DNA of 64,000 bases from a virus (Duplodnaviria > Caudoviricetes), in the IMG/VR virus record IMGVR_UViG_3300033064_000306, positions 937 through 64,936 of that record; one strand, 5' to 3'. This document shows positions 24,771 to 47,127 of this stretch, one piece after another (the stretch's first letter is position 1; each line of letters starts with the position of its first letter). A program made the position numbers and the translations under genes. The notes under the pieces are model-generated. The model did not search any database, was not told the DNA's origin, and saw only the letters and a program-made list of their open reading frames with translations.

Positions 24771-24812
24771 ACATTTCCTTTTAAGTGAACTCAGGTCTAT
24801 GCCTGTTAATTA

Positions 24813-31873: not shown

Positions 31874-31942
31874 AGTTAGGTAGCTTAGTAAATGTTGGAA
31901 TGTCAAGAGGTAACTTACGTAGCACCTCATCAACTATCTCAA

Positions 31943-32268: not shown

Positions 32269-32936
32269 CTGTAGTTTCCTTTTCCGTTATGTTCGCAGTC
32301 CTTAACAGCACAGAACTTGCGACAAGTAAAATTTGGTTTAGCGTTCCACACACCGTTTTCATGGGCAGCTTCTAGCTTATCTGTTTCTGTAATCCAAGCC
32401 AGCCACTTCTCATGGGCTTCATATTTTGTAAAGTTGGCTTTAATGAAGTCATCGCAAACCAAAAAGGCTAGCCCTGTGCGTGCTCTCTCAACCATAGGAA
32501 AGTGTTTGAACACCGCCAAAGCCATGAGTTCTAACTGCTTGGTGTCAGCATACTGAGCAGATTTGCCTGTTTTGTAGTCAATAATGTGGGCAACCTGATC
32601 GTTAATAATTAGCAAGTCGGCTATGCCTCGATACCAAACGTCTTTGTCAAAAAACCCACATGGCTCTAAATCCTCGGTTAGACCCATCTTGTATTCACAA
32701 TGCTTTTGGCCAGGGATACCTTTAAGAACATCCAATACTGGAATAATGAATGCAAACTTCTCCGGTACAGGTGTATTGCTTCCAATGTAATCTTCGGCGG
32801 CTTTGTGTACCATTTCACCATAAGTAATAGCGTCGGTTTTAGGCTCAACAATATCCTTGACTACTCGTAGGTGGTAGTACTTGCGTGGGCATTGTTGGAA
32901 TAAGCCAAGCCCTGAGTATGACCAAGTGATGCTCAT
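32265..32936 (-). CDS. Cas4-like PD-(D/E)XK exonuclease
   Basis: WSYS...CPRKY, GIADLL, IIDYKTGKS, C-terminal CRKFCAVKDC. Confidence 0.85.
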   Translation of the reverse strand: MSITWSYSGLGLFQQCPRKYYHLRVVKDIVEPKTDAITYGEMVHKAAEDYIGSNTPVPEKFAFIIPVLDVLKGIPGQKHCEYKMGLTEDLEPCGFFDKDVWYRGIADLLIINDQVAHIIDYKTGKSAQYADTKQLELMALAVFKHFPMVERARTGLAFLVCDDFIKANFTKYEAHEKWLAWITETDKLEAAHENGVWNAKPNFTCRKFCAVKDCEHNGKGNYR

Positions 32937-33109
32937 TCTTCTATCCTTATCCATGTTTTAACTGCACCTGACATCAAACGCATTTCAGTTTGTGCATTTA
33001 AACAATGCTCATACGCTATTTGAAAGTTATTCCTAACCAATGCGTCATGTGCCAACTTAATTTCCTTAAGTGCTTCTAAATACAATGTCGAATATTCAAT
33101 CTTATCCAT
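32933..33109 (-). CDS. Small hypothetical protein
   Basis: Coupled between polymerase and nuclease genes. Confidence 0.5.
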   Translation of the reverse strand: MDKIEYSTLYLEALKEIKLAHDALVRNNFQIAYEHCLNAQTEMRLMSGAVKTWIRIEE

Positions 33110-34941
33110 TACAAATTCCATTCCTCAATAGCTTTTTTCTTACTGCAATCACCGTAGGATGTACCTACTCCAAGTTCGCAAGTCAATGGAAGTTCTTGAG
33201 CCCACTTAGGTCTCCATTTCATGCACTCGTCAATATACACCATAGCATTATCTTGTTCTTCTTCACGCACTATTGCCATGACTGCGTCGTGTACTGTTAA
33301 TGCAACTCTGTAACGCTTGGCTATACGGAGCATCTGTTCACCAATAATGCACCGTGCTAGGGCTTGGCATAGGTTCTCTACTACCTTACCCCCATAAATC
33401 TTTATTCTTCCACGGCGACTAGCGTAGCTAAACTGTCCTTCTGAGTCTTGTTGGAGGTCTGAATAGTTAAGGTAGAGACCGCTTGGCAATAAGAAACCAT
33501 TCTCCGTAAGGGTAAGTGCCTGCGGTTGACACCCCACTTGCGCAGTTTGTTTATTTCTGAGGGCTTCGAGGGAACTATTAGCTTCTTTCCAAAGTCGGGG
33601 AATGAAAGGGTATCTAGATCTGTAGACATCAATAATCCTAGTCGCTTCCGCATCAGGGATTTCCACCCCAAAAGTTCGTAGTTGTACCCCAAACTTGGTA
33701 GAACCCATGCCATACCCCGCACCGAGGATTGTCGTCTTACCCACAAACCTTTCTCCCGCATCGATCTGCATTTCCTCCTTGCCGTATATAGCAGAAGCCA
33801 TGATTTTGTACACATCTTCTTTCCTCTCAAACGCATCAACTAAGTCGTTTTGTCCACTAAGCCAAGCAACTGTTCTTGCTTCAATTTGTGAACTATCTGC
33901 ATCAATGAGAACGAATCCAGTTGGGGCGACGATGGATTCTTTAAGTAAAGATTTTCTAGGCAGGTTTTGAAGGTTGAGTTTGTCGTCACCACCCCAGCGT
34001 CCAGTATGGGCGGCGTAGTAGCGAAGAGGGACAGGCATCGTTCCTCGTTTAGAGATGTTAATAAATCGCTCGGTTCGGGTTTCTTCAAGGGTGCTCTTAG
34101 TTCCCAATCTAGCGGCGACAACCGCTTGGACACGCTCATCGGGATGGTCTGCCAAAGCTTTGAACCCTTCATCCGACTTTGCAAAGGCATAAGTTTGTTT
34201 ACCATTAGCAGGGCTCTCTTTCATAGGGGGTTCAACACCAAGACTAATTAGTAGTTCAGCTAACTTGGGGTTACTCATCAATGTATCTTTATCTGATATG
34301 CAAGCATCAAGTAACTTTTCTTTACGTGCCTTGACTTGCATCAGATGTTGTTCTAATAGGGGTGTGTCTAGCCGTAGTGTTGGCTCTGAGAACATACGAA
34401 TGGTCAGGTCAATTAACTTTAGTTCTGATCGGCTAAAGCGTTGTGCAAGCAACTGAAATAGGTCATAGGTTAGCTTGACATCGTTCTTGCAATATTCACC
34501 GTACTGTGCCAACTGTGCCTTAGAAAAGTCAGCTCTGCGTAGTCCCTTCGCATCTATTACTTCAGAACCCTTTGTTCCTAACGAATACCGGGAAGCCAGC
34601 TTAGCTAAACTATTACCAGCTTCTAGCCCATCAGTAGCCCTAGCCATACCTAATGTATCTAGCCAAGCCATAGGCTTAATATCAAATACCCAACTAAGAA
34701 TAGCTGAGTCGAACAGGGCATTGTGTGCCAAAGCAAAGCTGGTCTCCCAATCAAATTGCTCTAGCCATGCCTTTGTTTCCTCGAAATTACCTGAGAACCA
34801 TTGGGCTGGTTCGTCGTTATTGGATACAGAAACTCCTATGACCTCGAAGCGATCATCACGAACATACTCTTCAGTTGTTAGCTTGGACAAGCTAAATTGC
34901 TGATCATAATAAGTTTCAAAGTCAATCGTAAAAGTATTCAT
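33109..34941 (-). CDS. polA: DNA polymerase family A with 3'-5' exonuclease
   Basis: DFETY, AHNALFD, motif A DSSQIEAR, motif B RFVGKTTILGAGYG, motif C VHDA. Confidence 0.93.
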   Translation of the reverse strand: MNTFTIDFETYYDQQFSLSKLTTEEYVRDDRFEVIGVSVSNNDEPAQWFSGNFEETKAWLEQFDWETSFALAHNALFDSAILSWVFDIKPMAWLDTLGMARATDGLEAGNSLAKLASRYSLGTKGSEVIDAKGLRRADFSKAQLAQYGEYCKNDVKLTYDLFQLLAQRFSRSELKLIDLTIRMFSEPTLRLDTPLLEQHLMQVKARKEKLLDACISDKDTLMSNPKLAELLISLGVEPPMKESPANGKQTYAFAKSDEGFKALADHPDERVQAVVAARLGTKSTLEETRTERFINISKRGTMPVPLRYYAAHTGRWGGDDKLNLQNLPRKSLLKESIVAPTGFVLIDADSSQIEARTVAWLSGQNDLVDAFERKEDVYKIMASAIYGKEEMQIDAGERFVGKTTILGAGYGMGSTKFGVQLRTFGVEIPDAEATRIIDVYRSRYPFIPRLWKEANSSLEALRNKQTAQVGCQPQALTLTENGFLLPSGLYLNYSDLQQDSEGQFSYASRRGRIKIYGGKVVENLCQALARCIIGEQMLRIAKRYRVALTVHDAVMAIVREEEQDNAMVYIDECMKWRPKWAQELPLTCELGVGTSYGDCSKKKAIEEWNL

Positions 34942-35255
34942 CTATAGGGTTTATACCTATTTTGAATCATAAGTAACTGTTGAGCCTTCAGCCCCTTTAT
35001 TGTTGTTGAACCAAACGGATTGTCCAAGTCATCTTCTTTTTCGTCGGCGGTCATGGTTTGCATAACGGCTAAAGTAAACTCTTCCTTGCGAATTTCTTTT
35101 ATACGGTCAAAAATCATACCTTTTTCGGCTTCGGACATTGCATCACGAAAGTATTCTTTGTAGATAAACTTCCACTTATTATTGTCACCATAAAATTCTT
35201 CGGGGTGCGTAGCCATCCGAGCTAGCACAATTTCAACTCCTGAGTTCATTGGCAT
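34938..35255 (-). CDS. Hypothetical protein
   Basis: Coupled ORF upstream of the polymerase. Confidence 0.55.
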   Translation of the reverse strand: MPMNSGVEIVLARMATHPEEFYGDNNKWKFIYKEYFRDAMSEAEKGMIFDRIKEIRKEEFTLAVMQTMTADEKEDDLDNPFGSTTIKGLKAQQLLMIQNRYKPYR

Positions 35256-35282
35256 CCTTTTTTTTAGGAAACTGGTCCGATA

Positions 35283-35573
35283 TCAGCAACGGTCGTCCTC
35301 TAAATATTCTTTGAGTTTGTTTATATTTTCTTCGTTGATAACAAAAGTCTCGCCTCCTGCATCACGGATGCGTTTTAGTTCTCGTTCTTGGAGTGCGGTG
35401 GTCTTGCCTTTGATGGTCTTGCACTCAATCGCAATGAACAGGGAGTTGAGGCAACATATAATGTCAGGCACACCTGACTTACCAAAGCCATGCGTAGCTG
35501 GAAAAAAGTAGTACACATTGTGTAACTTCAATAGCTTAACAACTGCGGCTTTAACCTTAGCTTCGGGCTTCAT
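35283..35573 (-). CDS. VRR-NUC / Holliday-junction-resolvase-like nuclease
   Basis: PEAKV...GVPDII...IECK...TALQ. Confidence 0.8.
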   Translation of the reverse strand: MKPEAKVKAAVVKLLKLHNVYYFFPATHGFGKSGVPDIICCLNSLFIAIECKTIKGKTTALQERELKRIRDAGGETFVINEENINKLKEYLEDDRC

Positions 35574-35607
35574 TTACTTTCCTTATGTTACTGCTTATTA
35601 TTGACAC

Positions 35608-35635
35608 AGTATAGTCCTTAGCCAGACGAAAGCAA
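35608..35635 (-). promoter_or_regulatory. Sigma70-like promoter for the replication operon
   Basis: TTGCTT-N16-TATACT, downstream of the early terminator. Confidence 0.5.
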
Positions 35636-35710
35636 GTGATTCTGGAAAATTATTTTATAGGGATAAACACCTAGAAAAGACAAAGTGTCACTATGCCACT
35701 TTGTCCCAAT

Positions 35711-35732
35711 AAAAAAGCCACCCGAAGGTGGC
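35711..35732 (-). terminator. Intrinsic terminator ending the early operon
   Basis: GCCACC-TTCG-GGTGGC-TTTTTT. Confidence 0.88.
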
Positions 35733-35744
35733 TTAGTAGGCTAA

Positions 35745-35814
35745 AGTATATTCCGCATCCTACTTGCGTTAGAGGGGAGATTGTGGCTTTCGCCTCACCT
35801 ACCTAACATATACT
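35745..35814 (-). ncRNA. Candidate structured RNA
   Basis: Nested helices and a GGC-GAAA-GCC tetraloop in a non-coding gap. Confidence 0.35.
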
Positions 35815-35848
35815 AGGCTTTAGTAAGTGCAATCAGGAAAACATAATT

Positions 35849-36760
35849 CTACTGCGTAGTGGTATCTCTTTCTACTATGAATAACATATCACCTCTAAAC
35901 TTGCAACCTAGATTAGAGTAAGGCTCATCTTGGTTTATTACCTTGAACATTGCCACCTTTTCACGAATAGCTTGAGGCACTTCCTCCAACTCTTTATACT
36001 TCTTAAGCGTCTGAGTAGCGTAACTATATATAGCTAGACTACCATTACTAAATATAGATACCGCATAGCCTTTGCCTGACTTCTTATGCTCTACTAAGTC
36101 ATTGGCTTCGTCCCATTCGTTGCATAGCTTCTCATGCTTCTCCAACTTACTAGCTACTGACTGAGGAATAGCGGGCAATGTAACTGTATCTATGCCTGCT
36201 TTTCTAGCCTTGTATGCACTAAGCACGTACCCCATGACTTCGTCTTCTGTGTTTACATCATATTTAATATACGAGTAGGCTTGCCTTTCCAAGTCCCTAA
36301 GTTGGTTATCGACCTGACCCTTGATTAAGCCAATGAGTTCTTCGTTCTGCCTGTTAACAAACACCTTCTTAACTGTGCGTAGTGCCACCTTGATGTTCTT
36401 GGTGTAAGTGCTTTCAGGATTACCTCGTTCTTTGCTAATGCGAAAACTCTCTACACCATATACCCATTCTTTATTACCACGAGAGTATCTCTCAGTAACA
36501 GACAAGCCACCCAAGCGTTCGCCGTCTTGATAGACATTAACATAATAAATCTCGGCTTTGTTGTTTCGCTCCATCTTAGTCCCACCCTTGCCATCATCAA
36601 CCTCTTCATAGTTATGGTTGATGCTGACGGAATTCTCTTCTGCCTTGAACTCGCATAGTGGTTTTAGTAATGACACTTGTTCTACAAAACTTTCAAGGTC
36701 GTTTCTAAATGGTGCGTTGCGATACTCTGCCTTGACACCGCTTTTGTCTATGTTAACCAT
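35849..36760 (-). CDS. Early hypothetical protein
   Basis: 303 aa; AGGAGG RBS. Confidence 0.7.
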   Translation of the reverse strand: MVNIDKSGVKAEYRNAPFRNDLESFVEQVSLLKPLCEFKAEENSVSINHNYEEVDDGKGGTKMERNNKAEIYYVNVYQDGERLGGLSVTERYSRGNKEWVYGVESFRISKERGNPESTYTKNIKVALRTVKKVFVNRQNEELIGLIKGQVDNQLRDLERQAYSYIKYDVNTEDEVMGYVLSAYKARKAGIDTVTLPAIPQSVASKLEKHEKLCNEWDEANDLVEHKKSGKGYAVSIFSNGSLAIYSYATQTLKKYKELEEVPQAIREKVAMFKVINQDEPYSNLGCKFRGDMLFIVERDTTTQ

Positions 36761-36769
36761 ACTTCCTCC

Positions 36770-37639
36770 TTAGAAATCAAACTTACTTAAGATAGCGTCG
36801 ACCTTCATCTTGACCGCTTCTCTAGCATTACTGTTATCACGCAGACTGTCGAGGTCGTGGTGGGCGATAGCTGACTGCAAGTCTTTGCGTGCTTGCTCTA
36901 GCTTGGGGTCTTGTGTGATGTTCAAGTGCTTCAGCATATCCACTAACTCCACGCTATTCTCTACTAAGGAGTCACGGAATATTTTTCGTGAGCCGTCGGC
37001 ATTGTCAGTCAACCTTTCGCTTGTGCGGGTTAAGCACTCATGCAATCTACTCCATGCTTCACGCATAGCGTTGTTCAACCTATCTTCGTAGGCGGTGTTG
37101 CAGTTAGCCATAATCTCCGCTTTGGATTCCTCGTTGATGTCGATACGGAAGTCGCCTGCGGTGGGGACAGGAAAGAAACTATATGTGAACTTGAACTTCT
37201 TCTTTAAGCTGTCCTCATTCGGGTATTCGTTTCTGTCGAATAGGTCACCAAGTTGAAAGGCAGCCGCACTTACTAGAGTTGGATACGACTCGATGAACTT
37301 ATCTACTAATGCGTCGTAGTTCTCCTCTAACTTGTTGAGTTGCTCCTTGTAGTTCATGAAGTTAGACATGGGCAACAAGCGTGAGCCGTTGTCAGTCCAC
37401 GGCAGGGTTTGAGAAAGATGCCATGCTCTAGCATTAGCCGCATACTTGACGAGGTTCTCTAACACCCCTGTGCCTGCCATCAGGTTCTTGTTAGCATTGA
37501 CCACCTTGGTCTTTGTCCCCTTGGCTAAGTCAACCTCTGTTGATACACGCTTATCCAATTTCCTAGCAGTCCATGTGCTGATGGATAGCTCGACGAGCAT
37601 CGCTGATGATGCAATTGAAATACTGTTATTCAGTTCCAT
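36770..37639 (-). CDS. Early protein, possibly DUF3150-like
   Basis: Start MELNN after a GAGGA RBS; WTARKLDK...TLPW...F.PVP pattern; next to AAA/VWA genes. Confidence 0.55.
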   Translation of the reverse strand: MELNNSISIASSAMLVELSISTWTARKLDKRVSTEVDLAKGTKTKVVNANKNLMAGTGVLENLVKYAANARAWHLSQTLPWTDNGSRLLPMSNFMNYKEQLNKLEENYDALVDKFIESYPTLVSAAAFQLGDLFDRNEYPNEDSLKKKFKFTYSFFPVPTAGDFRIDINEESKAEIMANCNTAYEDRLNNAMREAWSRLHECLTRTSERLTDNADGSRKIFRDSLVENSVELVDMLKHLNITQDPKLEQARKDLQSAIAHHDLDSLRDNSNAREAVKMKVDAILSKFDF

Positions 37640-37904
37640 TTGATTCCTCTTCGGTTGGTTGGGACATAGTGTCACCTTGACACTTTGTCCGTTGGTTGTA
37701 AAACTTTACAAGGTGTTGGATTGCTTGAGAATAGGTTAAGTTAAAGCCCATCTCTACACCCATCTTGTTTTTAATAGTGACTAACATCTCAACTGTTTCG
37801 GGGTTGAGACTAATGTTAATCTTGCCATCTTTCACTCTGCCTTTCGGCACTTTAGTTTTGATAGGGTCGTTCATACCGCCGTATCCTTCTTCGATTATTT
37901 GCAT
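37626..37904 (-). CDS. Possible ribbon-helix-helix DNA-binding protein
   Basis: AAGGAG RBS; KINISLNPETVEML...TYSQAIQHLV. Confidence 0.45.
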   Translation of the reverse strand: MQIIEEGYGGMNDPIKTKVPKGRVKDGKINISLNPETVEMLVTIKNKMGVEMGFNLTYSQAIQHLVKFYNQRTKCQGDTMSQPTEEESNGTE

Positions 37905-37914
37905 TTGATTCTCC

Positions 37915-39153
37915 TTATTCGACATGAACAATTTTGCCAACGGGTGCGTCAGCACTACTAAAGCGACTATTACCTTTGATGCACCACAACACAGGAGCAG
38001 ATAGAGTCCAATTACTTGGGTCTTGTTGCCCGATGTATCCGTCGGTCAGCATGATTAAACACTCAGGCTTGATGTTGTGCTTCTCCATAAACTTAGGCAC
38101 GCAAGCTGGCTCAGTCCCCCCACCACCCGCAGGCTTTGTGCTTTCGGTTAACCCTGAAAGTTCGTTCTCCATATATGTTTCTCTAGAAGCAACATGGGTA
38201 TCCCAATACAGTAGGTCAATGACTTCGGGTGATACCTCTTCGCAGATAGACTTAACCTCTGATAAGAATTGATTTAGTTCTGCCGAACCAATCGAACCCG
38301 ATGTGTCAATAGCGATTGCGATACCACCTACCTTTTCAGAATAGGATGAGGGCATAATTATATCGGCAGCAAGATAACGCTTATGCAGTCGTCGCCATGT
38401 AGATTGGTCTTTACCTTGCGTCATCGACTTAACGAAATCACGCAACGCTTCCTTCCAATCAATCTTGGGAACAAGCATATCTCCAATCTCACGACTGACA
38501 TTACCACCTAGCTTACCTACAAGAATAGAACCCTGACGCAACGCTGACTCGACTTCTTTAGCGATAGCTTCTTTCTCTTCGGTAGACATTTCTTTAGCAC
38601 CATCCCAATCATGCTCGTCAAAACCTTTGCCTTCACCTTTGATTGGATTATCACCATCACCACCACTACCACCTCCACCGCCACCACCACCTTCTTCCTT
38701 CTCTTTCTCTAGCAGTAGAAAGATTTGGTGTGAGTCCATACCTCGATACTTCTCGTCGATTAGACCTAGCACATTACCTAGTTCGTCGGTAGGCATTTCA
38801 GTATCGTTTTCATGAGGGTCATAGTCACGGATTTGCAGGTTAATCACATAATCGCAAGCCATATTAGCCAACTGTGCGTTCTTCTTATGCAACTTCTCCC
38901 ACACTACCAAGTGACGATAAGCCTTGTGCATATTCTCGTGCAAGATAAGGAAAGCCAACTGCTTGTCGTTCAAGCTGTCTACAAACTTACGACCATACCG
39001 AACATCAAGTCCGTTGGTGCAAGCAGTAGCTACATTGTCCTCGACTGTGACTTTGCCAATCATGAACAAGCCTGAGAACAAGCAATAGTTCTTGTGCTTC
39101 ATTAACTGCACATGACAACGCTCAATGCGTTGCTCTGCTGATAATCTACTCAT
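37915..39153 (-). CDS. Metallopeptidase-like + VWA domain protein (DUF2201 type)
   Basis: HENMH (HExxH); MIDAS DTSGS; GGGT; LTDGY. Confidence 0.85.
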   Translation of the reverse strand: MSRLSAEQRIERCHVQLMKHKNYCLFSGLFMIGKVTVEDNVATACTNGLDVRYGRKFVDSLNDKQLAFLILHENMHKAYRHLVVWEKLHKKNAQLANMACDYVINLQIRDYDPHENDTEMPTDELGNVLGLIDEKYRGMDSHQIFLLLEKEKEEGGGGGGGGSGGDGDNPIKGEGKGFDEHDWDGAKEMSTEEKEAIAKEVESALRQGSILVGKLGGNVSREIGDMLVPKIDWKEALRDFVKSMTQGKDQSTWRRLHKRYLAADIIMPSSYSEKVGGIAIAIDTSGSIGSAELNQFLSEVKSICEEVSPEVIDLLYWDTHVASRETYMENELSGLTESTKPAGGGGTEPACVPKFMEKHNIKPECLIMLTDGYIGQQDPSNWTLSAPVLWCIKGNSRFSSADAPVGKIVHVE

Positions 39154-39163
39154 ATAAATCTCC

Positions 39164-39394
39164 TTAGTTCCATCTTAGTTTTGGACAATCAGGGGCAGTG
39201 TTTCTACCCCTACGCACACATAGTGTGTCTGCAATTAAGTCTTTTAAGCCATGACGCATACAATCTAGTCGTCTGTCCATCTTGGCATAAAGGCTTTCAC
39301 GCAAATCACCATTGGTTCTACTAATACGCTTGACCTTGTGCAAACCCCTACGCTTCCACATACGCTCAAGTGCTACGCTTACTCGCTTAGTCAT
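39164..39394 (-). CDS. Small basic hypothetical protein
   Basis: Likely start MTKRVS with a GGGGGA RBS. Confidence 0.45.
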   Translation of the reverse strand: MTKRVSVALERMWKRRGLHKVKRISRTNGDLRESLYAKMDRRLDCMRHGLKDLIADTLCVRRGRNTAPDCPKLRWN

Positions 39395-39405
39395 ATATCC
39401 CCCTA

Positions 39406-40500
39406 TCAAAATAAATATTGGTGTTTGGTCATCCAATCAACAAAGGATTGGTGTGTAAGGAATAGCTTTTTCTTGTCGTCATCCTTCAAGCCTGTAAGAC
39501 AAAATACCGATTGCAACTCTGTCGGTGTCCGCTTGAGGTATTCAAAGAACTTGCCGATGGTTTGGCGGTCGATACGCTGAACTGCACTAAACGCAAGCAA
39601 GCACAATGCAGTCGGACTTGATGGGACAATGGCGGTGTTTGGGTCTTTGATAATTGACTCCCATGTCGGCAAACTATCCGCTACTTCTACGAATGACATC
39701 AAGTCACGAGCCGCTGGTGCTCCAATCGTGCCTTCTAGCGCACAAAGGGTTGCGTTGTCAGTTACCTTGTTGCGCCCATTAAGAATATTACTTGCTCTAG
39801 CAAGGGAACGAGGGGAAACAAAAGACTTCTGCGCTTCCTTTGGGTTGAAGATATATTTATTACCCTCTTGACTTGGCTCAAGATAAGATGCCAACGCTTG
39901 AGGTGTTTGCTTAATCCACGCAAGGACTTCGGGTGCGATGTTATTACGCAATGCCCAATGACCCCATGAGTTGTCGTCAACTGAACCATCAGGATTAAAG
40001 CCTGCGTGTGGTTTCTTAATATTAATTACGGATAAACGATTACGGGAATGGCTCATCATGTTATCGCCTACCCCGTCGGTGGTGTAGTTACCCGCCGTTA
40101 TCACTATCGTATCCTTGTGCAAGGGGATACCCATAATCATGCGTGGCTCGTTAAGCATTGGATGCAACATATTCTTAACTGATTGATGACCCTTAGTAAA
40201 CTCATCGCAAAAGATAACGAGTGGCTCTTTCAGATGAAAACCCCATTGTTCGTTGGGGTAAATCTTGGTGGTTTTGGTTTCGTGGTTGGGGATTGGGATA
40301 CCTAGTTCACCCAACTCTACATTTGGTACATCGATATAGATGCCTTTATAGCCAGTTCTTTCTACAATGTTCTTGAACATTGAGGTTTTGCCTACCCCTG
40401 GCTCACCCATAAGGTGAAAGGTTACACCAGCACCATGTGTTACTACGGAATCCTCTGCTTCTTTGAGGGTTACGCTACGATTTAATAAAACTTGAGACAT
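39406..40500 (-). CDS. MoxR-like AAA+ ATPase
   Basis: GEPGVGKT, FCDEF, TAGN, SPRS. Confidence 0.85.
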   Translation of the reverse strand: MSQVLLNRSVTLKEAEDSVVTHGAGVTFHLMGEPGVGKTSMFKNIVERTGYKGIYIDVPNVELGELGIPIPNHETKTTKIYPNEQWGFHLKEPLVIFCDEFTKGHQSVKNMLHPMLNEPRMIMGIPLHKDTIVITAGNYTTDGVGDNMMSHSRNRLSVINIKKPHAGFNPDGSVDDNSWGHWALRNNIAPEVLAWIKQTPQALASYLEPSQEGNKYIFNPKEAQKSFVSPRSLARASNILNGRNKVTDNATLCALEGTIGAPAARDLMSFVEVADSLPTWESIIKDPNTAIVPSSPTALCLLAFSAVQRIDRQTIGKFFEYLKRTPTELQSVFCLTGLKDDDKKKLFLTHQSFVDWMTKHQYLF

Positions 40501-40553
40501 ATTATATTTCCTTATTAGTTAGTTATTATTTGGGACAAAGTGTCACTATGACA

Positions 40554-41507
40554 CTATGTCCTTTGTTGCGAAAAATACTTCTTGTTATCGTCATGGAACA
40601 TAGACCCAACTTCCTGTTCTTCAACAGTAAATACTTGGTCACGATATTCATGCTTTAACACTTCACTAAAGAACCTCTTAAACCTAGCGGGTGTGCATTC
40701 AATCTTCTGCGACCGATAGGTAAACTCTCCACCACTACACGCTACATAGGTTGCGAGTTCATACAGAAGGGTCAAGTCCCCAGATTCGCTGAACTTATCC
40801 AATGCTAGAAAAAGCTTTGTTCGGTTCTCGATATCAGGGTTCTTCCTCTCCCAATTAACAAATGGTATGAGTGATGTATCTTTAAAGGTCAGACCATGAC
40901 TAGCTTCAGCCACCTCTATCCTCTCAATATACGGACTCATGCCTAGCATCGTCGCACCATAGTCAATAAATAACTTATACTTCTTGCGTAGTGCATTAAG
41001 TTCTTTGCGGTTGGCTTTATATCTTTTCTCTTTGACTACATTCTCGGCTACATACACTTCACCTTCTTTAACTAGCACGAGTCCGTTGTCCATCAAAAAG
41101 TTCTTGCCCGCCTTGTTGACAAAATACCATTTACCTTTGACCGAATCGATAGTCCCAAGCTGTGCTAACGAATAGGTAAAAAACTGTAACATCGATGGGT
41201 TATGCCAATGGGAGTTCCTTACTTTTATCTTGCCATCAGGAAAGAACTCGATATCGTTGTCACGGTAGAAAGAATACGAATAGGTATCGATGAATGTGCC
41301 GAGTGGGTTGTCCACGCCGCCCTCTACGCTTAACCTATTCTTGTAAATACGAAACCATGTATAGCGACGATTCTTGCCCAATGGTCTGCACTCAGGTGTC
41401 CGACCACGAATAGGGATTACCTTATCGTAGTAAGCCTTGACTTCCTCGTAGGTTGCCAAGGCAGGGATGCCTGCCGAGTTATATGGAGTGTACCCCCATC
41501 CCATCAT
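40554..41507 (-). CDS. Early hypothetical protein
   Basis: 317 aa; GGAGG RBS; stop codon lies inside a palindrome. Confidence 0.7.
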   Translation of the reverse strand: MMGWGYTPYNSAGIPALATYEEVKAYYDKVIPIRGRTPECRPLGKNRRYTWFRIYKNRLSVEGGVDNPLGTFIDTYSYSFYRDNDIEFFPDGKIKVRNSHWHNPSMLQFFTYSLAQLGTIDSVKGKWYFVNKAGKNFLMDNGLVLVKEGEVYVAENVVKEKRYKANRKELNALRKKYKLFIDYGATMLGMSPYIERIEVAEASHGLTFKDTSLIPFVNWERKNPDIENRTKLFLALDKFSESGDLTLLYELATYVACSGGEFTYRSQKIECTPARFKRFFSEVLKHEYRDQVFTVEEQEVGSMFHDDNKKYFSQQRT

Positions 41508-42226
41508 TTACCTCCAAACAATTTGGATTCGAGATAAGCTACTGTGGCACGCAAGTCCATGACTTCTTTCATTACTTCAGTCACTTCGCTAGTCACATTC
41601 CGTGTTCCGTAGGCTTTAGCTAGTGCGTCTTGCAATTCGCTAATCTGTTGTGCTTGCTTGCGAGCTTCGGTCTGCCACTCGACTACACGCTTCTCTAGAA
41701 ACTCAGCCGTATACAACGATGGTGGATTGTCAAACATATCAAACTGACGAGGGTCTTTGGCTACGGCTTTGCCCAATGACTTCGGATTGATAAACTTAGC
41801 TTTCTTACCACGATTAATCGGTGCAGGATTTTGCAAGATGCCACGCTTTTTAGCTTCTTCGCATGGGTAGAAACGAGTAATGCCTGACTGCGGATTAGTC
41901 TGTCTACCAATCAATCCACGAGAAACCCATCTACCTAGCTGAAGATTAACTAGCTTAACATTAGGTTCTTTGCAGTAGTTAGCTACGGCTTCTGCGGTGC
42001 GGTTGCCATTACTCAACGCACTCAAGATGCGGTCTTTCAATGGCTTGATGTGGTCAGGGTAGTTAAAGTTCACACCCTTCTGCTTACTTGATGCTTCAAC
42101 AGGCTGAACTTCCCTAGCTACCAGCTGACGAGGTGGGTAACGGAGTGACTCTATGTCCACTTGCGTTGGTTGATGATTTAACTGCTCTTTGAACAATCTT
42201 AATGCTTCTATGGCTTCGTTTTTCAT
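41504..42226 (-). CDS. Possible winged-helix protein with C-terminal coiled coil
   Basis: RILSALSNGNRTAEAVANY...VNLQLGRWVSRGLIGR. Confidence 0.5.
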   Translation of the reverse strand: MKNEAIEALRLFKEQLNHQPTQVDIESLRYPPRQLVAREVQPVEASSKQKGVNFNYPDHIKPLKDRILSALSNGNRTAEAVANYCKEPNVKLVNLQLGRWVSRGLIGRQTNPQSGITRFYPCEEAKKRGILQNPAPINRGKKAKFINPKSLGKAVAKDPRQFDMFDNPPSLYTAEFLEKRVVEWQTEARKQAQQISELQDALAKAYGTRNVTSEVTEVMKEVMDLRATVAYLESKLFGGK

Positions 42227-42285
42227 AATTGAAAATTTCCTATTTAAGTTGAATAACGGACTTAGTGTCACCATGACACTTTGTC

Positions 42286-43779
42286 CTACTTTGTAACCCA
42301 TAACACTAGTAATACAGGCACTATTGTTATGCCAATCACAACAGTCATGCCTTCCAACATTCCACGCATGAATTTAATCCCATACATGAAATCACTCTCG
42401 CACTTCCACAGTCCAGTTGCGTAGTCAGCATCTTTAAATGCTTCACTAGCACTCCGTGAGGTGCGACCAACATAGTGACGAACATCGCCAATGCCATCAA
42501 AGTTGTTATTACTGCGTAAGTCAAGGGCAATCACCGCAACCCCTGCTTTAATACTATTTAGCTTCTTCATTACTAATCTCCCGAAGTTGTGCTTCATGGT
42601 TCAACAACATTTCTTTGGTTTGCCACACCAACAGACGAGCATGGTCTTTGGTAATACCCTTTTGCAAGGCAAAGTCTAGGTTGCCTATCATGTTGTGAGT
42701 GTGAACTAACAAATCCGATATCGTCGGCTTTGGTTTAATCATATGTCCCCCTGTAATGCGGTTAGCTTGGCTTTCATGACGGCAAGCGTTGCTTCTGCTT
42801 CTATACAACGGAATATCTGCTCACCCTCTGCCGTCCCCTTGGTATGCTCAAGAACAGATTGAAGGTCAGCGATGTTCTTCAATAACTCGCTGATGCGTTG
42901 CCCTTTATACATTTCCCTACTCATACAAACTCCCTTATCCAATCGATATAAACTTCGTCAAAATAAAACCACCTAGCTTGTCGATTCCTATCAGGCACAT
43001 CAATAGGGTAATTAACTAGCAGAGCATGGCTGTCCCACCGAACCACCTTGTAGAACTCAGGCTTGTCAGGCTTGCGGTATAACTTAACTACCTTCATTTC
43101 CTTCTCCAAAAATCCTAGCATTAAAGCCCTCAAGAAAGCCATCAATAAAAGCATGACGAGCTTCGTTAATATAGGGTGCGTCTTTAGTGCCTACTTGCCC
43201 TGTGTGCGGGTCATACTCTTGCATCCAAATCCAACTGCGACTGACTGCAATTTCCATGATGGTTGCGGTCTTGTTTATGTTTTCGTAATCCTCTAATTTA
43301 CCCATCATGTTGTCCTCTTTGGGTTAGTAAAACGCAAATCGTCAGGGTTGTGAATATATTGGTAAGCACCTTTGGAATAAGGAATCTGAACCATGCTTGC
43401 TTTACGCTTGGACTTAGCTACGGCTATCTTGTCGCCACACTTCATACAAGTCAACGGCTTGGACTCGTTGATTAGAAACTGAGCACGCTTGCCGTTCACA
43501 TACACTTGGCAATCCTTGGCGGTGTTGGCTACGCAAAAGTAGCGGTGCGACTCGTGGCTCATATTACGGACTTGTGTATTCATATCGTATTCTCGTATAT
43601 AGGTTGATTGGGACATAGTGTCAGAGTGACACTTCGTCTTTGGTTTGGATACTAGCGAGGTTGATTGCTTCCATCGTTTCCTTGGCGAGTGCAAGGTTTT
43701 CTGCGGTTGGATACTTGAGGCAAAGCATGAATAGCTTTTGGAGTGTGCCTGCTACTTGTGCTTGTTCTTTACTTGTCAT
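42286..43779 (-). CDS. Run of seven small coupled early ORFs (42286-42570, 42554-42742, 42739-42924, 42921-43097, 43084-43308, 43305-43583 Cys-rich, 43621-43779)
   Basis: Overlapping stops/starts and RBS-like GGAG/GGGG/GAGG sequences; functions unknown. Confidence 0.55.
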
Positions 43780-43858
43780 ATAAATCTCCCTTGATTGGGA
43801 CAAAGTGGCATGATGACACTTTGTCGGTTGCATGTTGTAGGCGAATTCCCACTCTATT

Positions 43859-43887
43859 AGTATAACACATTTAGTGGTAAATGTCAA
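43859..43887 (-). promoter_or_regulatory. Near-consensus sigma70 early promoter
   Basis: TTGACA-N17-TATACT. Confidence 0.88.
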
Positions 43888-44041
43888 GGACTTGTCCTGT
43901 AGTTATAGTGTTGCTTGGCTTTATTGCGTGGCTTACGCATCGTGGAATTCCCCTAGTGCGTCGCCCCATCGAGCCAGTTCCCGACCTCAAAATAAAAAGA
44001 AAAAGGACAAAGTGTCAAGCTGACACAATGTCCTAGGCAAT

Positions 44042-44063
44042 AAAAAAGCCCACCTAAGTGGGC
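44042..44063 (-). terminator. Intrinsic terminator
   Basis: GCCCAC-TTAG-GTGGGC-TTTTTT. Confidence 0.85.
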
Positions 44064-44083
44064 TTAAAGGGTTAAGGGGTTAA

Positions 44084-44665
44084 TTACATACCTAGCAATT
44101 CTTGGTGAATACGAGTGAGTAAACTAAAATCCTCGCACTTACCCAAGCACTCACGAATCTCCTTGCGGATTGCGTTGAGTTGCTCCTTAATATCATTACC
44201 CGCCTCTTTTTGACGCAACTCCAACTCCTTGCCCAACTTCTTGGCTTCGTCAATACGCTTCAAAGTGGGTTGAGCCAAGAGGTGAGCCATCTCCGCTTGC
44301 AATTCCTCATCGGCTTTGTCTTCGAACACTTCACGCACTTTTGCCCTTTGCTCGGCTTTTTTCTTGGCTTGCGGGTCATCACTAACAGGGATAGTGATAG
44401 CAGATTCTTTACAAACACGAGACCACTTCGTTTTGATAGCATCTGCGGATTTGCCAGCTTGCTCAAGGGTTTCAACAAAGATAATGCGACCCATCGAGTA
44501 ACGAGCCCAAGACGGCTTAGCGCCCAATACACGAGCAATGGTTGAAATGGCTTCTACAACTGTTTCTTCGCCATCATTCATCGCTAAGGAAGCGGACACC
44601 AACTGGGCATCTTCTTGCTCGTTAAACTGCTCGAGCATTTCTGCGGTTTTGACTACTGATTTCAT
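44084..44665 (-). CDS. Early helical protein, paralog of 45238-45870
   Basis: Own promoter, GGAG RBS and terminator. Confidence 0.75.
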   Translation of the reverse strand: MKSVVKTAEMLEQFNEQEDAQLVSASLAMNDGEETVVEAISTIARVLGAKPSWARYSMGRIIFVETLEQAGKSADAIKTKWSRVCKESAITIPVSDDPQAKKKAEQRAKVREVFEDKADEELQAEMAHLLAQPTLKRIDEAKKLGKELELRQKEAGNDIKEQLNAIRKEIRECLGKCEDFSLLTRIHQELLGM

Positions 44666-44758
44666 AACAATCTCCATAGAGTGAGGTTTAGGGTTTGGGA
44701 CATTGTGTCACTCTGCCACTTTGTCCTTTGCTACATATGGGCGAATTCCCACTCTATT

Positions 44759-44787
44759 AGTATACCACCCTTGATGGGATTTGTCAA
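44759..44787 (-). promoter_or_regulatory. Near-consensus sigma70 early promoter
   Basis: TTGACA-N17-TATACT; shares a 25-bp identical block with the 43859 promoter. Confidence 0.88.
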
Positions 44788-44801
44788 GGGTTTGTCCCAT
44801 C

Positions 44802-45095
44802 TGTTCTAGATTATGGGGGTAATGTTCTGTAATGTTCTATATGGTCGGAACACTCTCTAGCCCTTGTTCTATATGGTTAAGAGGGCTATATAAGTATAAT
44901 GTTCTATTGTTCTATATATGTCCAAAACACTTTTTGAGTTTAAAACTTGCACCGAGTGGGGGGCTCTTTGCTCCTTGACTTTTTAAAAAATCAGAATGGA
45001 GATGTTGGAACATTTAGAACATTTAGAACAATATAGCTAAGTGCTTGATTACATTTGGTTTCTTCTGTTCTATTCGGTAGAACATTACAAGAACA
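44802..45095. repeat. Cluster of 13 TGTTCY/RGAACA hexamers (iteron-like) with an IHF consensus site at 45038-45050
   Basis: Direct reading; AATCAAGCACTTA on the - strand matches WATCAANNNNTTR. Confidence 0.7.
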
Positions 45096-45180
45096 AAGCA
45101 AGACATAGTGGCATGATGACACTTTGTCCATCGGGCTAGTGCGTCGCTTACAACCAGTTCCCTATTATTTTTAACTGGAC

Positions 45181-45209
45181 AAAAAAATCCCCTGGGGTTA
45201 GCCAGGGGA
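45181..45209 (-). terminator. Intrinsic terminator with a CCWGG in each stem arm
   Basis: TCCCCTGG-N6-CCAGGGGA-TTTTTTT. Confidence 0.85.
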
Positions 45210-45237
45210 ATGAAGTAATACTATGCCGACAGATTAA

Positions 45238-45870
45238 TTACAGTCCGGCTACCTGGTAATCATAATCATTAAATATTGCTAGAGCAGCATTTAATGTATC
45301 CTCTTCCAGGCAATTCTTAGCTGCCTTAGCCACTTCGGACTGTAATGCTTTAATGATTTCCATTCTATCTTTCAGCACCAGGGCACGTTTATCCTCAATA
45401 ACAGCAGCTACCTTAGCAGCCTTAGCCAGGTTAGATTTAGTAGCGTTAGCTGTAAGCATAGATACTTCAGCCTGGAGCTCTTCAAAACTGCGCTCCATTT
45501 GTACAGCCTTTTGGGTAGCAGCCTTAGCTCTCTGATCGGCTTTAGCCTGGCTGTCTTTAGCTTTACTAGCTGGTTTAGACAGGCCGTACATCTCTTCAAG
45601 CCTAGCTGTAAATCTTTTCCACATAGATTTAATAGTATCACTATCCAGGCTTACACCTTTTTTAGTAGCGTATGCTGTTTTAACTACCTGGCTACCTTCC
45701 GCCCAGGTATCATAGTCTGTTACATCAATACCATCAGCATCCTGGACGGTTACGTTCCTGGCAAACTGTTCGATAGCATCATCAGCATCTACTTCGGCTA
45801 CTGCAAACATCGTCCCGATATCCTGGAAGGATATGTTTAATTCTTCTGACAATTGGAAGTTATTTTCCAT
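45238..45870 (-). CDS. First early gene; helical protein encoded by CCWGG-saturated DNA
   Basis: 210 aa; AGGGGA RBS; monocistronic. Confidence 0.75.
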   Translation of the reverse strand: MENNFQLSEELNISFQDIGTMFAVAEVDADDAIEQFARNVTVQDADGIDVTDYDTWAEGSQVVKTAYATKKGVSLDSDTIKSMWKRFTARLEEMYGLSKPASKAKDSQAKADQRAKAATQKAVQMERSFEELQAEVSMLTANATKSNLAKAAKVAAVIEDKRALVLKDRMEIIKALQSEVAKAAKNCLEEDTLNAALAIFNDYDYQVAGL

Positions 45871-45928
45871 TTTAGTTCCCCTGTATTAGGTTAGTTATCC
45901 AGGCTGCACCTTGCTACCTGGTCATTAC

Positions 45929-45957
45929 ATTATACACCCGGACTGATAGTTATCCAG
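45929..45957 (-). promoter_or_regulatory. Candidate promoter with perfect -10 and weak -35 overlapping CCWGG
   Basis: CTGGAT-N17-TATAAT. Confidence 0.45.
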
Positions 45958-46497
45958 GATATATCTTACTGGACATGGGAGCTATATAGAATAAGGCGCA
46001 GCCGACGGGTATCAAATTCACCAGGTAGCTAACCCACCATACCCCACCCCCCAAGATACAGATTAGGAGTCCCAGCAATGCAATATACACAGTGTTTTAC
46101 ACGGTACATCACATCAAAAATATTTTTAATAAATTCATAACTTAAGTGATGAAAACAACCCATTCTCTAGCATTATTTGTTATGTACTTATATTCACCAC
46201 TTATGACTCATCGCACATATAATTTTAAAAAAAGTTTATTTGCTAGGTAATCCCGGCCATCTAACTACATCCTATTCTCTAGTAGGGGGTATGATTATTC
46301 TCCTGGTAAGACGTTGTTAATTAACTACAGTAAGGGTACCCCCCTCTTTTATTTTGGGACTCCCCCCCCGGGGGGTATAAAAAAATTTATAATATTTTTA
46401 CTTAGTCACGTGAGTCGTGCTGGGGTGGGCACGAAGATTTACCACCCCACTAAAAAATAATATATACTCCAGCCATACAAACCTCCACTAAGGCTGT

Positions 46498-47127
46498 ATG
46501 CAAATACCGGTCGAACCAAATCTCGACGCACCTATCCCAGCGGGGGCCTATCCTCAAAGAGGGGATACTTATGAGCAGCGACTTAAGGTTGCTGGGAATA
46601 CTGCGCTCCTACTAAATGAACTCGGTGTAGAAGACGATATTCCTACAGATGAAGAAATTGCCCAAGCAAAAGAAATGTTTGAGGCAATTAGACCTGCGGA
46701 CGACAAAACATCTAAGCCTACTAAAGAAGAAACAAAAGCTCTTAAAAAAACTGGGCTAGCGTTAACCCTAGGTGGGTACATTAGTGAGTACGAGAAGCAA
46801 GTAGTCGCTGATAAAGTCCAAGTTAGAACAATTGTGGTTAATAGGTTGATGGAAATTAGCCAGACGGATGACGACAAAGTGGCTTTAAAGGCCCTCGAGT
46901 TGCTTGGAAAAGCGTCGGACCTGTTTACTGAACGTTCTGAAATCACTATTACCCACAAAACTAGCGATGAACTTAAGGCTGCTATTAAGGAACGCATCAA
47001 ATTACTTATGGGTCAGCCTATGAAAGACATCCCAAGTGCTACGGAGAAGCGGCTAAACCAGCTAAACCACAACCAAATGGAAATAATAGACGTTACAGCC
47101 CTTGAAAAAATTGAAGATGACGACTAA
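46498..47127 (+). CDS. Putative terminase small subunit
   Basis: Immediately upstream of terL; ALKALELLGK...LFTE. Confidence 0.6.
   Translation: MQIPVEPNLDAPIPAGAYPQRGDTYEQRLKVAGNTALLLNELGVEDDIPTDEEIAQAKEMFEAIRPADDKTSKPTKEETKALKKTGLALTLGGYISEYEKQVVADKVQVRTIVVNRLMEISQTDDDKVALKALELLGKASDLFTERSEITITHKTSDELKAAIKERIKLLMGQPMKDIPSATEKRLNQLNHNQMEIIDVTALEKIEDDD

What the first reader, a model, noticed from the sequence alone, without database searches (positions are those of the whole stretch)
35678..45129. Nine 29-bp palindromes punctuate and bracket the early region
Seen: 13-bp arms with a variable 3-nt centre at 35678, 37662, 40533, 42258, 43611, 43798, 44005, 44698 and 45101; none noticed elsewhere. 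They sit at gene junctions (three overlap stop codons), about 30 bp downstream of both strong promoters' -10 boxes, and just past three terminators. Arm mismatches are non-compensatory, favouring a dimeric DNA-binding site over an RNA stem. Their span matches the restriction-site desert. Inference: a phage protein binds along the early segment to shut it off, protect it or ratchet it in; recombination sites for gene cassettes are an alternative.
Basis: partly seen in the sequence, partly recalled or inferred. Interest (0 to 1): 0.82.

Follow-up and report, generated by a model that had tools for sequence, protein, structure and literature searches.

The report
Palindromic punctuation of phage early operon
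Nine near-identical 27-29-bp imperfect palindromes mark the promoters, gene junctions and terminators of a phage's first-expressed operon, and related phages keep the same layout with different palindrome sequences, which points to a fast-diversifying phage-specific control signal whose reader is still unknown.

Summary
Exactly nine copies of GACAWAGTGKCA-N3-TGMCACWTTGTC-like palindromes lie at the stated places; none occurs elsewhere in the 64,936-bp virus record, and none in 100 shuffles. All sit in a leftward, minus-strand early operon. Two lie 33 nt after the -10 of sigma-70-type promoters, three follow terminators and four sit at cistron junctions.

The main new result is comparative. Thirty related viral loci carry palindromes at the same syntenic places, in at least 14 sequence classes. 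Sequence is uniform within a genome and differs between genomes, and total length is always 27-29 bp. Class does not follow the backbone phylogeny. The class A pattern gave only two single hits in 185,579 species genomes.

The arms vary independently at degenerate positions, yet perfect palindromes are depleted: 9 seen against 22.8 expected.

Best reading (0.45): multi-copy operators or roadblocks on duplex DNA for a phage-encoded protein, like stoperators but palindromic and limited to the early region. An RNA-hairpin signal (0.28) and a single-strand DNA or cassette role (0.13) remain open. No binding protein was identified.

The parts
45102..45128 (-). Site 1. About 60 nt after the terminator stem of the first early gene, 7 nt after a conserved GGGAACTGG...GCGACGCACTAG element, and upstream of an iteron-like region.
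44699..44725 (-). Site 2. Starts 33 nt after the -10 of promoter P1, and lies 33 nt upstream of the ATG of the second E1 paralogue.
44006..44032 (-). Site 3. Lies 13 nt after a terminator stem and is followed by a T-rich run. Its inner stem plus tail is itself scored as terminator-like.
43799..43825 (-). Site 4. Starts 33 nt after the -10 of promoter P2, and lies 19 nt upstream of a 52-aa ORF.
43612..43638 (-). Site 5. A cistron junction; it contains the TGA stop of the 52-aa ORF and lies 28 nt upstream of the zinc-ribbon-like ORF.
42259..42285 (-). Site 6. A cistron junction; it abuts the TAG stop of ORF 42286-42597 and lies 32 nt upstream of the HTH/zipper gene.
40534..40560 (-). Site 7. A cistron junction; the TAG stop of the 317-aa ORF lies inside the 5' arm, and the AAA ATPase ATG is 33 nt downstream.
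37663..37689 (-). Site 8. Lies inside the C-terminal tail of the RHH-like ORF and 23 nt upstream of the DUF3150-like gene.
35679..35705 (-). Site 9. Lies 9 nt after the terminator stem that ends the early operon. Its 3' end abuts or overlaps the -35 position of a TAGG-N7-CCCTATAAAA promoter-like element of the replication operon.
44759..44787 (-). Promoter P1: TTGACA, 17-nt spacer, TATACT, with TG.
43859..43887 (-). Promoter P2: TTGACA, 17-nt spacer, TATACT, with TG. It is part of a 103-nt repeat (76% identical) shared with the P1 and site 2 region.
   Evidence: (family D3)
45188..45209 (-). Intrinsic terminator after E1 paralogue 1.
44046..44065 (-). Intrinsic terminator after E1 paralogue 2.
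35715..35734 (-). Intrinsic terminator at the end of the early operon. Its sequence is conserved across motif classes.
45238..45870 (-). E1 paralogue 1 (210 aa). Orphan all-helical family, present in every relative that covers this part.
44084..44677 (-). E1 paralogue 2 (197 aa; the likely start is the second ATG at 44665). Flanked by sites 2 and 3; a candidate reader of the sites.
37626..37904 (-). RHH-like 92-aa ORF. A candidate DNA binder, but absent from motif classes D, E, J and K.
41504..42226 (-). 240-aa ORF that reads as a winged-helix/HTH region, a K-rich linker and a C-terminal zipper (my reading of the sequences). A candidate DNA binder, but absent from classes D, E, J and K.

Best explanation
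The palindromes are cis-acting recognition sites on duplex DNA for a phage-encoded, sequence-specific protein that binds as a symmetric dimer or a dimer of dimers. This makes them a multi-operator set that punctuates the roughly 10-kb early operon.

Each site pairs one consensus half-site with one weakened half-site. Where the sites lie suggests what a bound protein would do:
- At about +26 to +52 after the two host-type promoters it would block elongating RNA polymerase.
- At 3-9 nt past the T-runs of terminators it would stall polymerase on the U-tract and reinforce termination.
- At cistron junctions it would impose polarity.
- At the end of the operon it overlaps the -35 position of the next promoter, like a classical operator.

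The net effect would be timed shut-off and insulation of the early transcription units. The specificity of site and reader has diversified into at least 14 classes among related phages.

Shown: the sites, their positions, their conservation, class diversification, symmetric covariation, independent arm variation and constant length.

For: 1. Specific sequence, not only pairing, is under selection. Across 58 class A sites from 6 records whose coding DNA is only about 70-80% identical, 14 core positions are invariant.

2. The arms vary independently at degenerate positions. At position 10/18 there are 37 T-A, 12 G.A, 7 U.C and only 2 G-C. In class K and J sites the half-site variants also combine without compensation, by my reading of the site lists.

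3. Information content is symmetric between the arms.

4. Outer-to-outer length is 27-29 bp in all 14 classes (198 distinct sites), although the central gap between the class-specific inner repeats was set at 3 to 7 nt in the class patterns, so the lengths partly follow from those patterns.

5. All sites of one genome share one class, while syntenic sites in related genomes belong to other classes. On 17 orthologous ATPase-upstream sites, 8 of 12 pairs change on both sides, and the covariation score is 0.41 against 0.12 in shuffles (0 of 500). Class is not congruent with ATPase identity: L020 at 86% and L021 at 84% belong to other classes, while L043 and L044 at 73-74% are class A.

6. Sites occur where RNA is unlikely to matter. 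In 22 of 30 loci, 25 sites start 3-9 nt (one at 16 nt) after the T-run of a terminator. Site 1 lies in a non-coding gap before the promoters. Class I genomes keep a site inside the VWA coding sequence.

7. Of 55 sense-strand promoter-like matches in the early regions, 30 are followed by a site 32-67 nt after the -10. These 30 span 12 of the 14 classes.

8. It is not a host regulon. The class A pattern gave 2 single matches in 185,579 species genomes.

9. The sites are confined to the early region in the window's record and in 6 further records.

10. The region encodes candidate DNA binders. One is an RHH-like protein: its helix-helix core has pLDDT above 90, and the best weak fold hits are RHH-type proteins such as NikR, CopG, ParD and MazE, at E 0.8-4. 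The other is an HTH-plus-zipper family.
Against: No reader was identified.
- The RHH-like family tracks class A against non-A (at least 58% against at most 55% identity). However, its putative DNA-reading strand is the same in classes G, H, I, L and M, and the family is absent from the loci of classes D, E, J and K.
- The HTH/zipper family is absent from the same classes, and its DNA-binding-domain type does not follow class.
- The universal E1 family has no recognisable DNA-binding fold.

Perfect palindromes are depleted: 9 of 198 against 22.8 +/- 3.6 when arms are re-paired within a class (0 of 2000 permutations). Exactly one arm is variant in 50 of 58 class A sites (Fisher p = 3e-7; orthologous sites are not independent). 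A plain symmetric operator does not predict this. I have to explain it by tuning of affinity or by avoidance of strong transcribed hairpins.

There is an orientation bias relative to transcription: 173 A.A against 66 T.T mismatches.

Every site is probably transcribed, and would fold at -9.4 to -17.1 kcal/mol.

Of 232 sites, 156 have a Shine-Dalgarno-like word and an ATG within 75 nt downstream (median 23 nt), against 21% of random positions. This fits an mRNA-level role equally well.

Operators downstream of promoters at variable distance (32-67 nt) are unusual for repressors.
Confidence: 0.45

Rival explanations
1. The functional form is the RNA hairpin in the early transcripts: a 12-13-bp stem with a conserved internal mismatch. 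A phage RNA-binding protein or a host ribonuclease would read it as a signal for processing, stability, antitermination or translational control of each cistron.
For: All sites lie in the sense orientation of one operon, in 5' leaders and intercistronic gaps.
- 156 of 232 sites have an SD-like word and an ATG a median of 23 nt downstream.
- Predicted hairpins fold at -9.4 to -17.1 kcal/mol, with z-scores from -1.9 to -5.4.
- Arm position 5 is unpaired in 14 of 17 orthologous sites (22 of 28 in the wider set), while positions 8-11 are paired in 27-28 of 28 with 3-4 pair types.
- Perfect stems are depleted. Four of the five perfect class A sites are followed by T-rich runs, at the end of the E1 gene, where the window has a separate terminator.
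- A.A outnumbers U.U mismatches 173 to 66 in sense orientation, and wobble pairs slightly exceed A.C (59 against 41).
- The layout of sites after the early promoters and between early cistrons resembles the RNase III sites of the T7 early region (recalled).
Against: - Pairing is not maintained where the sequence varies within a class: 19 of 21 variant sites at position 10/18 are mismatched.
- The loop is not conserved.
- The stem sequence is invariant across genomes about 25-30% diverged, which structure alone does not need.
- Total length is constant while the loop ranges from 3 to 7 nt.
- 25 sites lie just after efficient-looking terminators and would be absent from most transcripts.
- Site 1 precedes no gene.
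- Stems of 12-13 bp are short for RNase III (recalled).
- There was no Rfam match at E up to 1.
- The A.A bias could simply reflect the A-rich sense strand (AT skew).
Confidence: 0.28
2. The sites act as single-strand DNA hairpins or cruciforms, or as short homology blocks. In that case they would be structure- and strand-specific targets or mobile regulatory cassettes. They would mark the boundaries at which early genes are gained, lost and swapped, in the manner of PeSL, REP or attC elements.
For: - The sites are imperfect palindromes whose mismatch gives different hairpins on the two strands.
- They show concerted uniformity within genomes and turnover between genomes.
- Two sites are part of a 103-nt promoter-plus-site repeat (family D3).
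- Some indels between close relatives start at a site. L018/L052 carries an extra small ORF bracketed by two sites.
- 21 of 129 gap edges lie within 45 nt of a site, against 8% expected by length.
- PeSLs are composite promoter/terminator motifs described as points of genetic exchange in T4-like phages (abstract of PMC4122927).
Against: - 108 of 129 gap edges are not at sites, and the twofold enrichment is expected for any feature that sits at gene boundaries.
- No integrase, Y1/HUH transposase or virion RNA polymerase appeared among the 49 ORFs scanned in one or more family libraries. This scan was not exhaustive.
- The syntenic positions of the sites are conserved across all classes, which argues for a standing function rather than mobility.
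Confidence: 0.13
3. The motif is the binding site of a host protein (a regulator, nucleoid protein, or uptake- or Chi-like signal), and the classes reflect different hosts.
For: Class differs between otherwise close phages, as host-specific signals would. The promoters are host-type.
Against: - The scan of one genome for each of 185,579 species with the degenerate class A pattern gave 2 single matches and no genome with several.
- The sites are confined to about 10 kb of the phage.
- Only the full palindrome was scanned, not half-sites. Hosts may also be missing from the collection.
Confidence: 0.04

Closest known systems
Stoperators of Cluster A mycobacteriophages (the L5 and Bxb1 repressor sites)
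   Same: Both are many copies of one genome-specific motif. Most copies are not in promoters; they lie in short intergenic gaps and are biased in orientation with transcription. The motif consensus differs between related phages together with repressor specificity, and the proposed action is a block to elongation. Source: passages read in PMC6550527 and the abstract listing of PMC9283540.
   Different: Stoperators are 13-bp asymmetric sites read by a monomeric repressor of temperate phages, with 20-30 copies spread over the whole genome. Here the sites are 27-29-bp quasi-palindromes, 9-11 per genome, and confined to the early operon. The phage shows no integrase or immunity repressor among the ORFs scanned, and no cognate protein has been identified.
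PeSL composite promoter/terminator motifs of T4-like phages
   Same: Both are short repeated regulatory modules (an early promoter plus a stem-loop) that flank small variable early genes. PeSLs are proposed to mediate indels by recombination (abstracts of PMC2839356 and PMC4122927). Here two sites are embedded in a 103-nt promoter-plus-site repeat.
   Different: Seven of the nine sites have no promoter attached. The positions are syntenically conserved across all classes. Only 21 of 129 gap edges are near a site.
RNase III processing hairpins of the T7 early region
   Same: Both are hairpins with an internal loop placed after the strong early promoters and between early cistrons of a host-polymerase-transcribed early operon.
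   Different: The stems here are only 12-13 bp. The sequence is invariant within a genome and class-specific between genomes. Sites also follow terminators, and cleavage is untested.
Multi-operator regulons of plasmids and phages read by RHH or ParB-type proteins, such as NikR-type two-turn palindromes and KorB sites on RK2 (recalled)
   Same: Both are long palindromic operators whose outer half-sites lie about two helical turns apart, repeated many times on one replicon. An RHH-like gene is encoded next to a site.
   Different: No membership can be claimed. The RHH-like protein has no significant sequence or fold match and is missing from four motif classes.

Membership tests
Stoperator-type multi-site repressor system | Many copies of one genome-specific motif outside promoters, in intergenic gaps of transcription units. 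| tested here: met
   There are 9 sites here and 9-11 in each complete relative. Seven of the 9 are not within 80 nt of a promoter, and 156 of 232 lie just upstream of an SD-like word and an ATG.
Stoperator-type multi-site repressor system | An asymmetric 13-bp site read by a monomeric two-domain repressor. | tested here: not met
   The sites are 27-29-bp quasi-palindromes with a symmetric conservation profile.
Stoperator-type multi-site repressor system | A cognate repressor that is encoded by the phage and co-varies with the motif. | tested here: inconclusive
   The RHH-like and E1 families partly track class, but neither is both universal and specific.
Stoperator-type multi-site repressor system | One orientation relative to transcription. 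| tested here: inconclusive
   The palindrome has no overall direction. The weakened arm is the 3' arm in 37 class A sites and the 5' arm in 13 of the 58.
T7-type RNase III processing sites | About two turns of double-stranded RNA with an internal loop, cleaved by host RNase III. | tested here: inconclusive
   The stems are 12-13 bp with a 1-3-nt internal mismatch and fold at -9.4 to -17.1 kcal/mol. Cleavage cannot be tested here, and no RNA run was listed.
Lambda-type nut (boxA/boxB) antitermination sites | A small hairpin with a conserved loop read by an arginine-rich N protein, one per operon, downstream of the promoter. | tested here: not met
   The loop columns carry 0.13-0.58 bits. There are nine copies, including copies after terminators. 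The position downstream of promoters is similar.
PeSL mobile regulatory cassettes | A composite early promoter plus stem-loop at the edges of indels between close relatives. | tested here: inconclusive
   Two of the 9 sites carry a promoter. 21 of 129 gap edges lie within 45 nt of a site, against 8% expected by length.
N4-type hairpin promoters for a virion RNA polymerase | A virion-packaged RNA polymerase, and short hairpins with a conserved loop purine. | tested here: not met
   The 2072-aa virion protein has an LPD39 domain and no PDB or Pfam RNA-polymerase match. The loop is not conserved. Only the AAA ATPase resembles those of N4-like phages, at about 25% identity.
REP/RAYT or integron attC hairpins | An associated Y1 transposase or integron integrase. 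| tested here: not met
   None was found among the 49 ORFs scanned in one or more family libraries. Not every ORF of the genome was scanned.
Known RNA families (Rfam 15) | A match to a curated covariance model. | tested here: not met
   There were 0 matches at E up to 1 in 35000-47000 on both strands.

The most novel reading that the evidence does not exclude
The site and reader pair could be a diversifying specificity system of a lytic phage lineage, an analogue of heteroimmunity groups. A phage already in the cell would use its reader to silence, through these sites, the early operon of any later-arriving phage of the same class. Escape from such exclusion would then drive the turnover into at least 14 classes that cut across the backbone phylogeny.
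Probability: 0.15. Interest if true: 0.8.

Novelty: new variant of a known kind. Interest (0 to 1): 0.62.

Why it matters
If the reading holds, this abundant lineage of uncultured phages controls its first 10 kb through one reiterated signal. The E1 profile found at least 200 homologous protein clusters in metagenomes. The signal's specificity has been rewritten at least 14 times while its positions and geometry stayed fixed.

That makes it a natural series for studying how a cis site and its reader co-evolve. It is also a source of orthogonal operator or hairpin parts that work with sigma-70 promoters. It could be a case of superinfection control in a lytic phage.

The work also gives a practical marker. 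Palindrome class and position delimit the early region in fragmentary viral contigs.

Tried and rejected
Tried without result:
- Megablast of the region against 50,697 phage records found no match.
- Rfam at E up to 1 found nothing.
- Sequencing runs: no RNA holder was listed.
- Pfam and PHROGs found nothing for the E1 paralogues, the 317-aa and 303-aa ORFs or the small early ORFs.
- E1 model (pLDDT 90): there was no Foldseek match at E up to 0.001 in PDB or BFVD. The Atlas gave only leads below 0.9.
- The 317-aa ORF gave only a weak Atlas lead, to a cyanophage family.
- An E1 profile search gave at least 200 homologues, all named hypothetical.
- The literature searches listed nothing describing this element. 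I saw only the listings and abstracts. Supplements were not consulted.

Considered and rejected:
- Virion-RNA-polymerase hairpin promoters: no polymerase was found.
- Middle-promoter activator boxes: only about 23 nt separate a site from the ATG, and an SD lies in between.
- A short upstream ORF starting at the ATG that many 3' arms contain: the frames and stops relative to the downstream gene are inconsistent (my reading).
- The -35-like hexamer inside class A arms: it is absent from the other classes.
- The zinc-ribbon ORF and the 317-aa ORF as readers: their identities do not follow class.
- Sub-repeat readings of the arms, such as 8-bp periodicity: these are not general across classes (my reading).
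- Uptake-sequence or Chi-like readings: not testable beyond.

Caveats:
- My per-class site lists come from patterns with up to 4 substitutions. The same patterns gave 10 matches on reversed sequences against 232 real ones. With that laxity, related classes also cross-match.
- For the count of 198, I dropped matches with more than 4 arm mismatches and matches identical within a class.
- L052's ATPase-upstream site has a 4-nt centre and fell outside the pattern.

Full report
**Observation.** The 27-nt core occurs nine times with up to 3 mismatches, at 35679, 37663, 40534, 42259, 43612, 43799, 44006, 44699 and 45102. It occurs 0 times in 100 dinucleotide-preserving shuffles. The window is bases 937-64936 of a 64,936-bp virus record rated 97% complete. 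That record holds the same nine copies and no others, and the backwards control pattern gave 0.

**Setting.**
- Genes from 45870 down to 35849 are on the minus strand, so I describe the sites in transcript orientation.
- Structural and packaging genes (terminase 47102-48661, portal, and a 2072-aa virion protein with an LPD39 domain) are on the plus strand.
- Replication genes (family A polymerase 33109-34941, helicase, primase) continue the minus strand.
- The closest cultured phages are distant. The polymerase is 34-37% identical to those of Rhizobium and Pseudomonas phages, and the ATPase about 25% to those of N4-like phages.

**Anatomy of the region.**
- The two best sigma-70-type matches (TTGACA, 17-nt spacer, TATACT with TG; 11 of 12 positions) lie at 44787-44759 and 43887-43859. 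Each is followed by a site that starts 33 nt after the -10.
- Three strong intrinsic terminators (stems 45209-45188, 44065-44046 and 35734-35715) are followed by sites about 60, 13 and 9 nt after the stem.
- The other four sites fill cistron junctions. Two of them contain the upstream stop codon, and one lies in the tail of a 92-aa ORF.
- After the last site comes TAGG-N7-CCCTATAAAA. This reads as the promoter of the replication operon, and its -35 position abuts the site (by analogy with L032).

**Relatives with the same motif.** A pattern scan of IMG/VR found the motif in 9 stretches from 7 contigs. Five records searched whole have 9-10 copies each, all clustered in one region of about 10 kb, and the control gave 0. 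In 58 sites from the six records:
- Positions 1-3, 7-9 and 11 and their mirror positions are invariant.
- The A/T triplet (positions 4-6) and positions 10 and 12 vary.
- The information profile is symmetric between the arms, and the 3-nt centre is nearly free.
- Variation at position 10/18 is uncompensated: 12 G.A, 7 U.C and 2 G-C.
- Exactly one arm deviates in the triplet in 50 of 58 sites: both arms canonical in 7, both variant in 1. Fisher p = 3e-7, but orthologous sites are not independent. The deviating arm switches sides between orthologues.

**Relatives with other motifs.** Searching with the AAA ATPase gave 34 loci. At the same syntenic places they carry palindromes of other sequences, which I grouped into at least 14 classes.
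- Each class shares an outer N-A-C-A-W-W element and has a class-specific inner 5-7 nt.
- All sites of one genome belong to one class.
- Total length is 27-29 bp in all 198 distinct sites, whatever the central gap.
- On 17 orthologous ATPase-upstream sites, 8 of 12 pairs change on both sides. The covariation score is 0.41 against 0.12 in shuffles (0 of 500). Arm position 5 is unpaired in 14 of 17 (the wider set is).
- Class does not follow backbone similarity. Loci with 82-86% ATPase identity to the window belong to classes H, G, L and I, while class A includes loci at 72-74%.
- Class-specific sites are confined to one region in six further records, including a complete 63.5-kb class B genome with 11 sites spanning 23,954-33,618.

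There is no Rfam match.

**DNA or RNA?**

For duplex DNA read by a symmetric protein:
- sequence invariance across genomes about 25-30% diverged;
- independent half-site variation;
- constant outer spacing;
- 25 sites in 22 of 30 loci starting 3-9 nt (one at 16 nt) after terminator T-runs, next to a terminator whose own sequence stays the same while the site changes class;
- a site kept inside the VWA coding sequence in class I;
- a site at the -35 position of the next promoter.

For RNA:
- the sites lie in leaders and junctions, and 156 of 232 have an SD-like word and an ATG a median of 23 nt downstream, against 21% of random positions;
- the hairpins are stable, at -9.4 to -17.1 kcal/mol;
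- perfect palindromes are depleted, 9 against 22.8 +/- 3.6 expected (0 of 2000 permutations);
- four of the five perfect class A sites are followed by T-rich runs, at the end of the E1 gene;
- A.A mismatches outnumber T.T mismatches 173 to 66 in sense orientation.

I read these last points as selection against terminator-like or overly stable hairpins in sites whose primary form is DNA. They equally fit a hairpin with a required internal loop. The weights are in the explanation sections.

**Who reads the sites?** I compared every early protein family with motif class.
- The RHH-like 92-aa ORF tracks class A (58-75% identity) against non-A (41-55%), even in the otherwise divergent L031. Its model has a confident helix-helix core, and its best weak fold hits are RHH-type proteins. 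However, the putative reading strand is identical in five classes, and the family is missing from classes D, E, J and K.
- The HTH-plus-zipper family is missing from the same four classes, and its DNA-binding-domain type does not follow class.
- The E1 family is universal wherever the upstream part is covered, in one or two copies. It is flanked by sites and fast-evolving, but it is an orphan helical protein with no fold or family match.

**Recombination role.** Between 14 pairs of closer relatives, 21 of 129 gap edges lie within 45 nt of a site, against 8% expected by length. That is a weak enrichment, expected of anything that sits at gene boundaries.

**Comparison with known systems.** The nearest functional analogue is the stoperator system of Cluster A mycobacteriophages (passages of PMC6550527). 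It is not a member of that system, because the sites are palindromic, twice as long, restricted to the early operon, and lack a known repressor. PeSLs (abstract of PMC4122927), T7 RNase III sites, nut sites, N4 hairpin promoters and REP/attC elements were each considered. The membership table gives the tests.

**Verdict.** This is a real, conserved and diversifying cis element, a new variant of reiterated phage control sites. A duplex-DNA operator or roadblock is the most likely mechanism (0.45), and the reader protein is still to be found.

Noticed in passing
window 44800-45090: At least eight copies of an (A)TAGAACA(T)/TGTTCTA word, on both strands, in the non-coding gap between site 1 and promoter P1. 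The array looks like iterons and could be an origin or a second operator set (family D9).
   Followed up: no
window 45136-45162 and 43953-43982 (minus strand): Two copies of GGGAACTGG-(6 or 9 nt)-GCGACGCACTAG, one just upstream of site 1 and one just downstream of site 3. The element is conserved upstream of site 1 in relatives L014-L018. Its function is unknown; it may be an alternative promoter.
   Followed up: partly
window 35653-35673; relatives, just after their last site: TAGG-N7-CCCTATAAAA in the window, and TAGGG-N5/6-CCCTA followed by TAAAA in most classes. It follows the terminal site at a short, fairly fixed distance and is a likely promoter, with an embedded palindrome, for the replication operon.
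   Followed up: partly
window 45900-46500: The gap between the divergent early and packaging genes contains long C and G runs and no convincing ORF. It may hold the genome end or packaging signals.
   Followed up: no
window 26878-31709 (minus strand): A cluster of radical SAM/SPASM (28587-29456), FkbM-type methyltransferase (30136-30858), GT10 fucosyltransferase-like (30855-31709) and glycosyltransferase-like (26878-27648) genes among the replication genes. It could modify DNA or a cell-surface structure.
   Followed up: no
window 13937-20155: A 2072-aa virion protein with an LPD39 'polyvalent protein' domain and matches to very large phage proteins. No RNA-polymerase match was found.
   Followed up: partly
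window 32000-44000: The density of 4-bp and 6-bp palindromes is about 30-40% lower here than in most other 4-kb bins (28, 26 and 34 against 32-69 for 6-mers). This only roughly coincides with the span of the sites.
   Followed up: partly
L024:9898, L026:6454, L028:10019: Class I relatives keep a full site inside the coding sequence of the DUF2201/VWA gene, at the same place in three genomes.
   Followed up: partly
relatives of motif classes D, E, J and K (L025, L030, L032-L034, L036, L041, L049, L050): These classes lack both the RHH-like and the HTH/zipper genes and carry two other small acidic families instead (my families 28 and 35). There therefore seem to be two alternative accessory modules in the early region.
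   Followed up: partly
window 35283-35573: A 96-aa Hjc/VRR-NUC-type nuclease gene is the first gene after the last site, and it is conserved in all relatives that reach this point.
   Followed up: no
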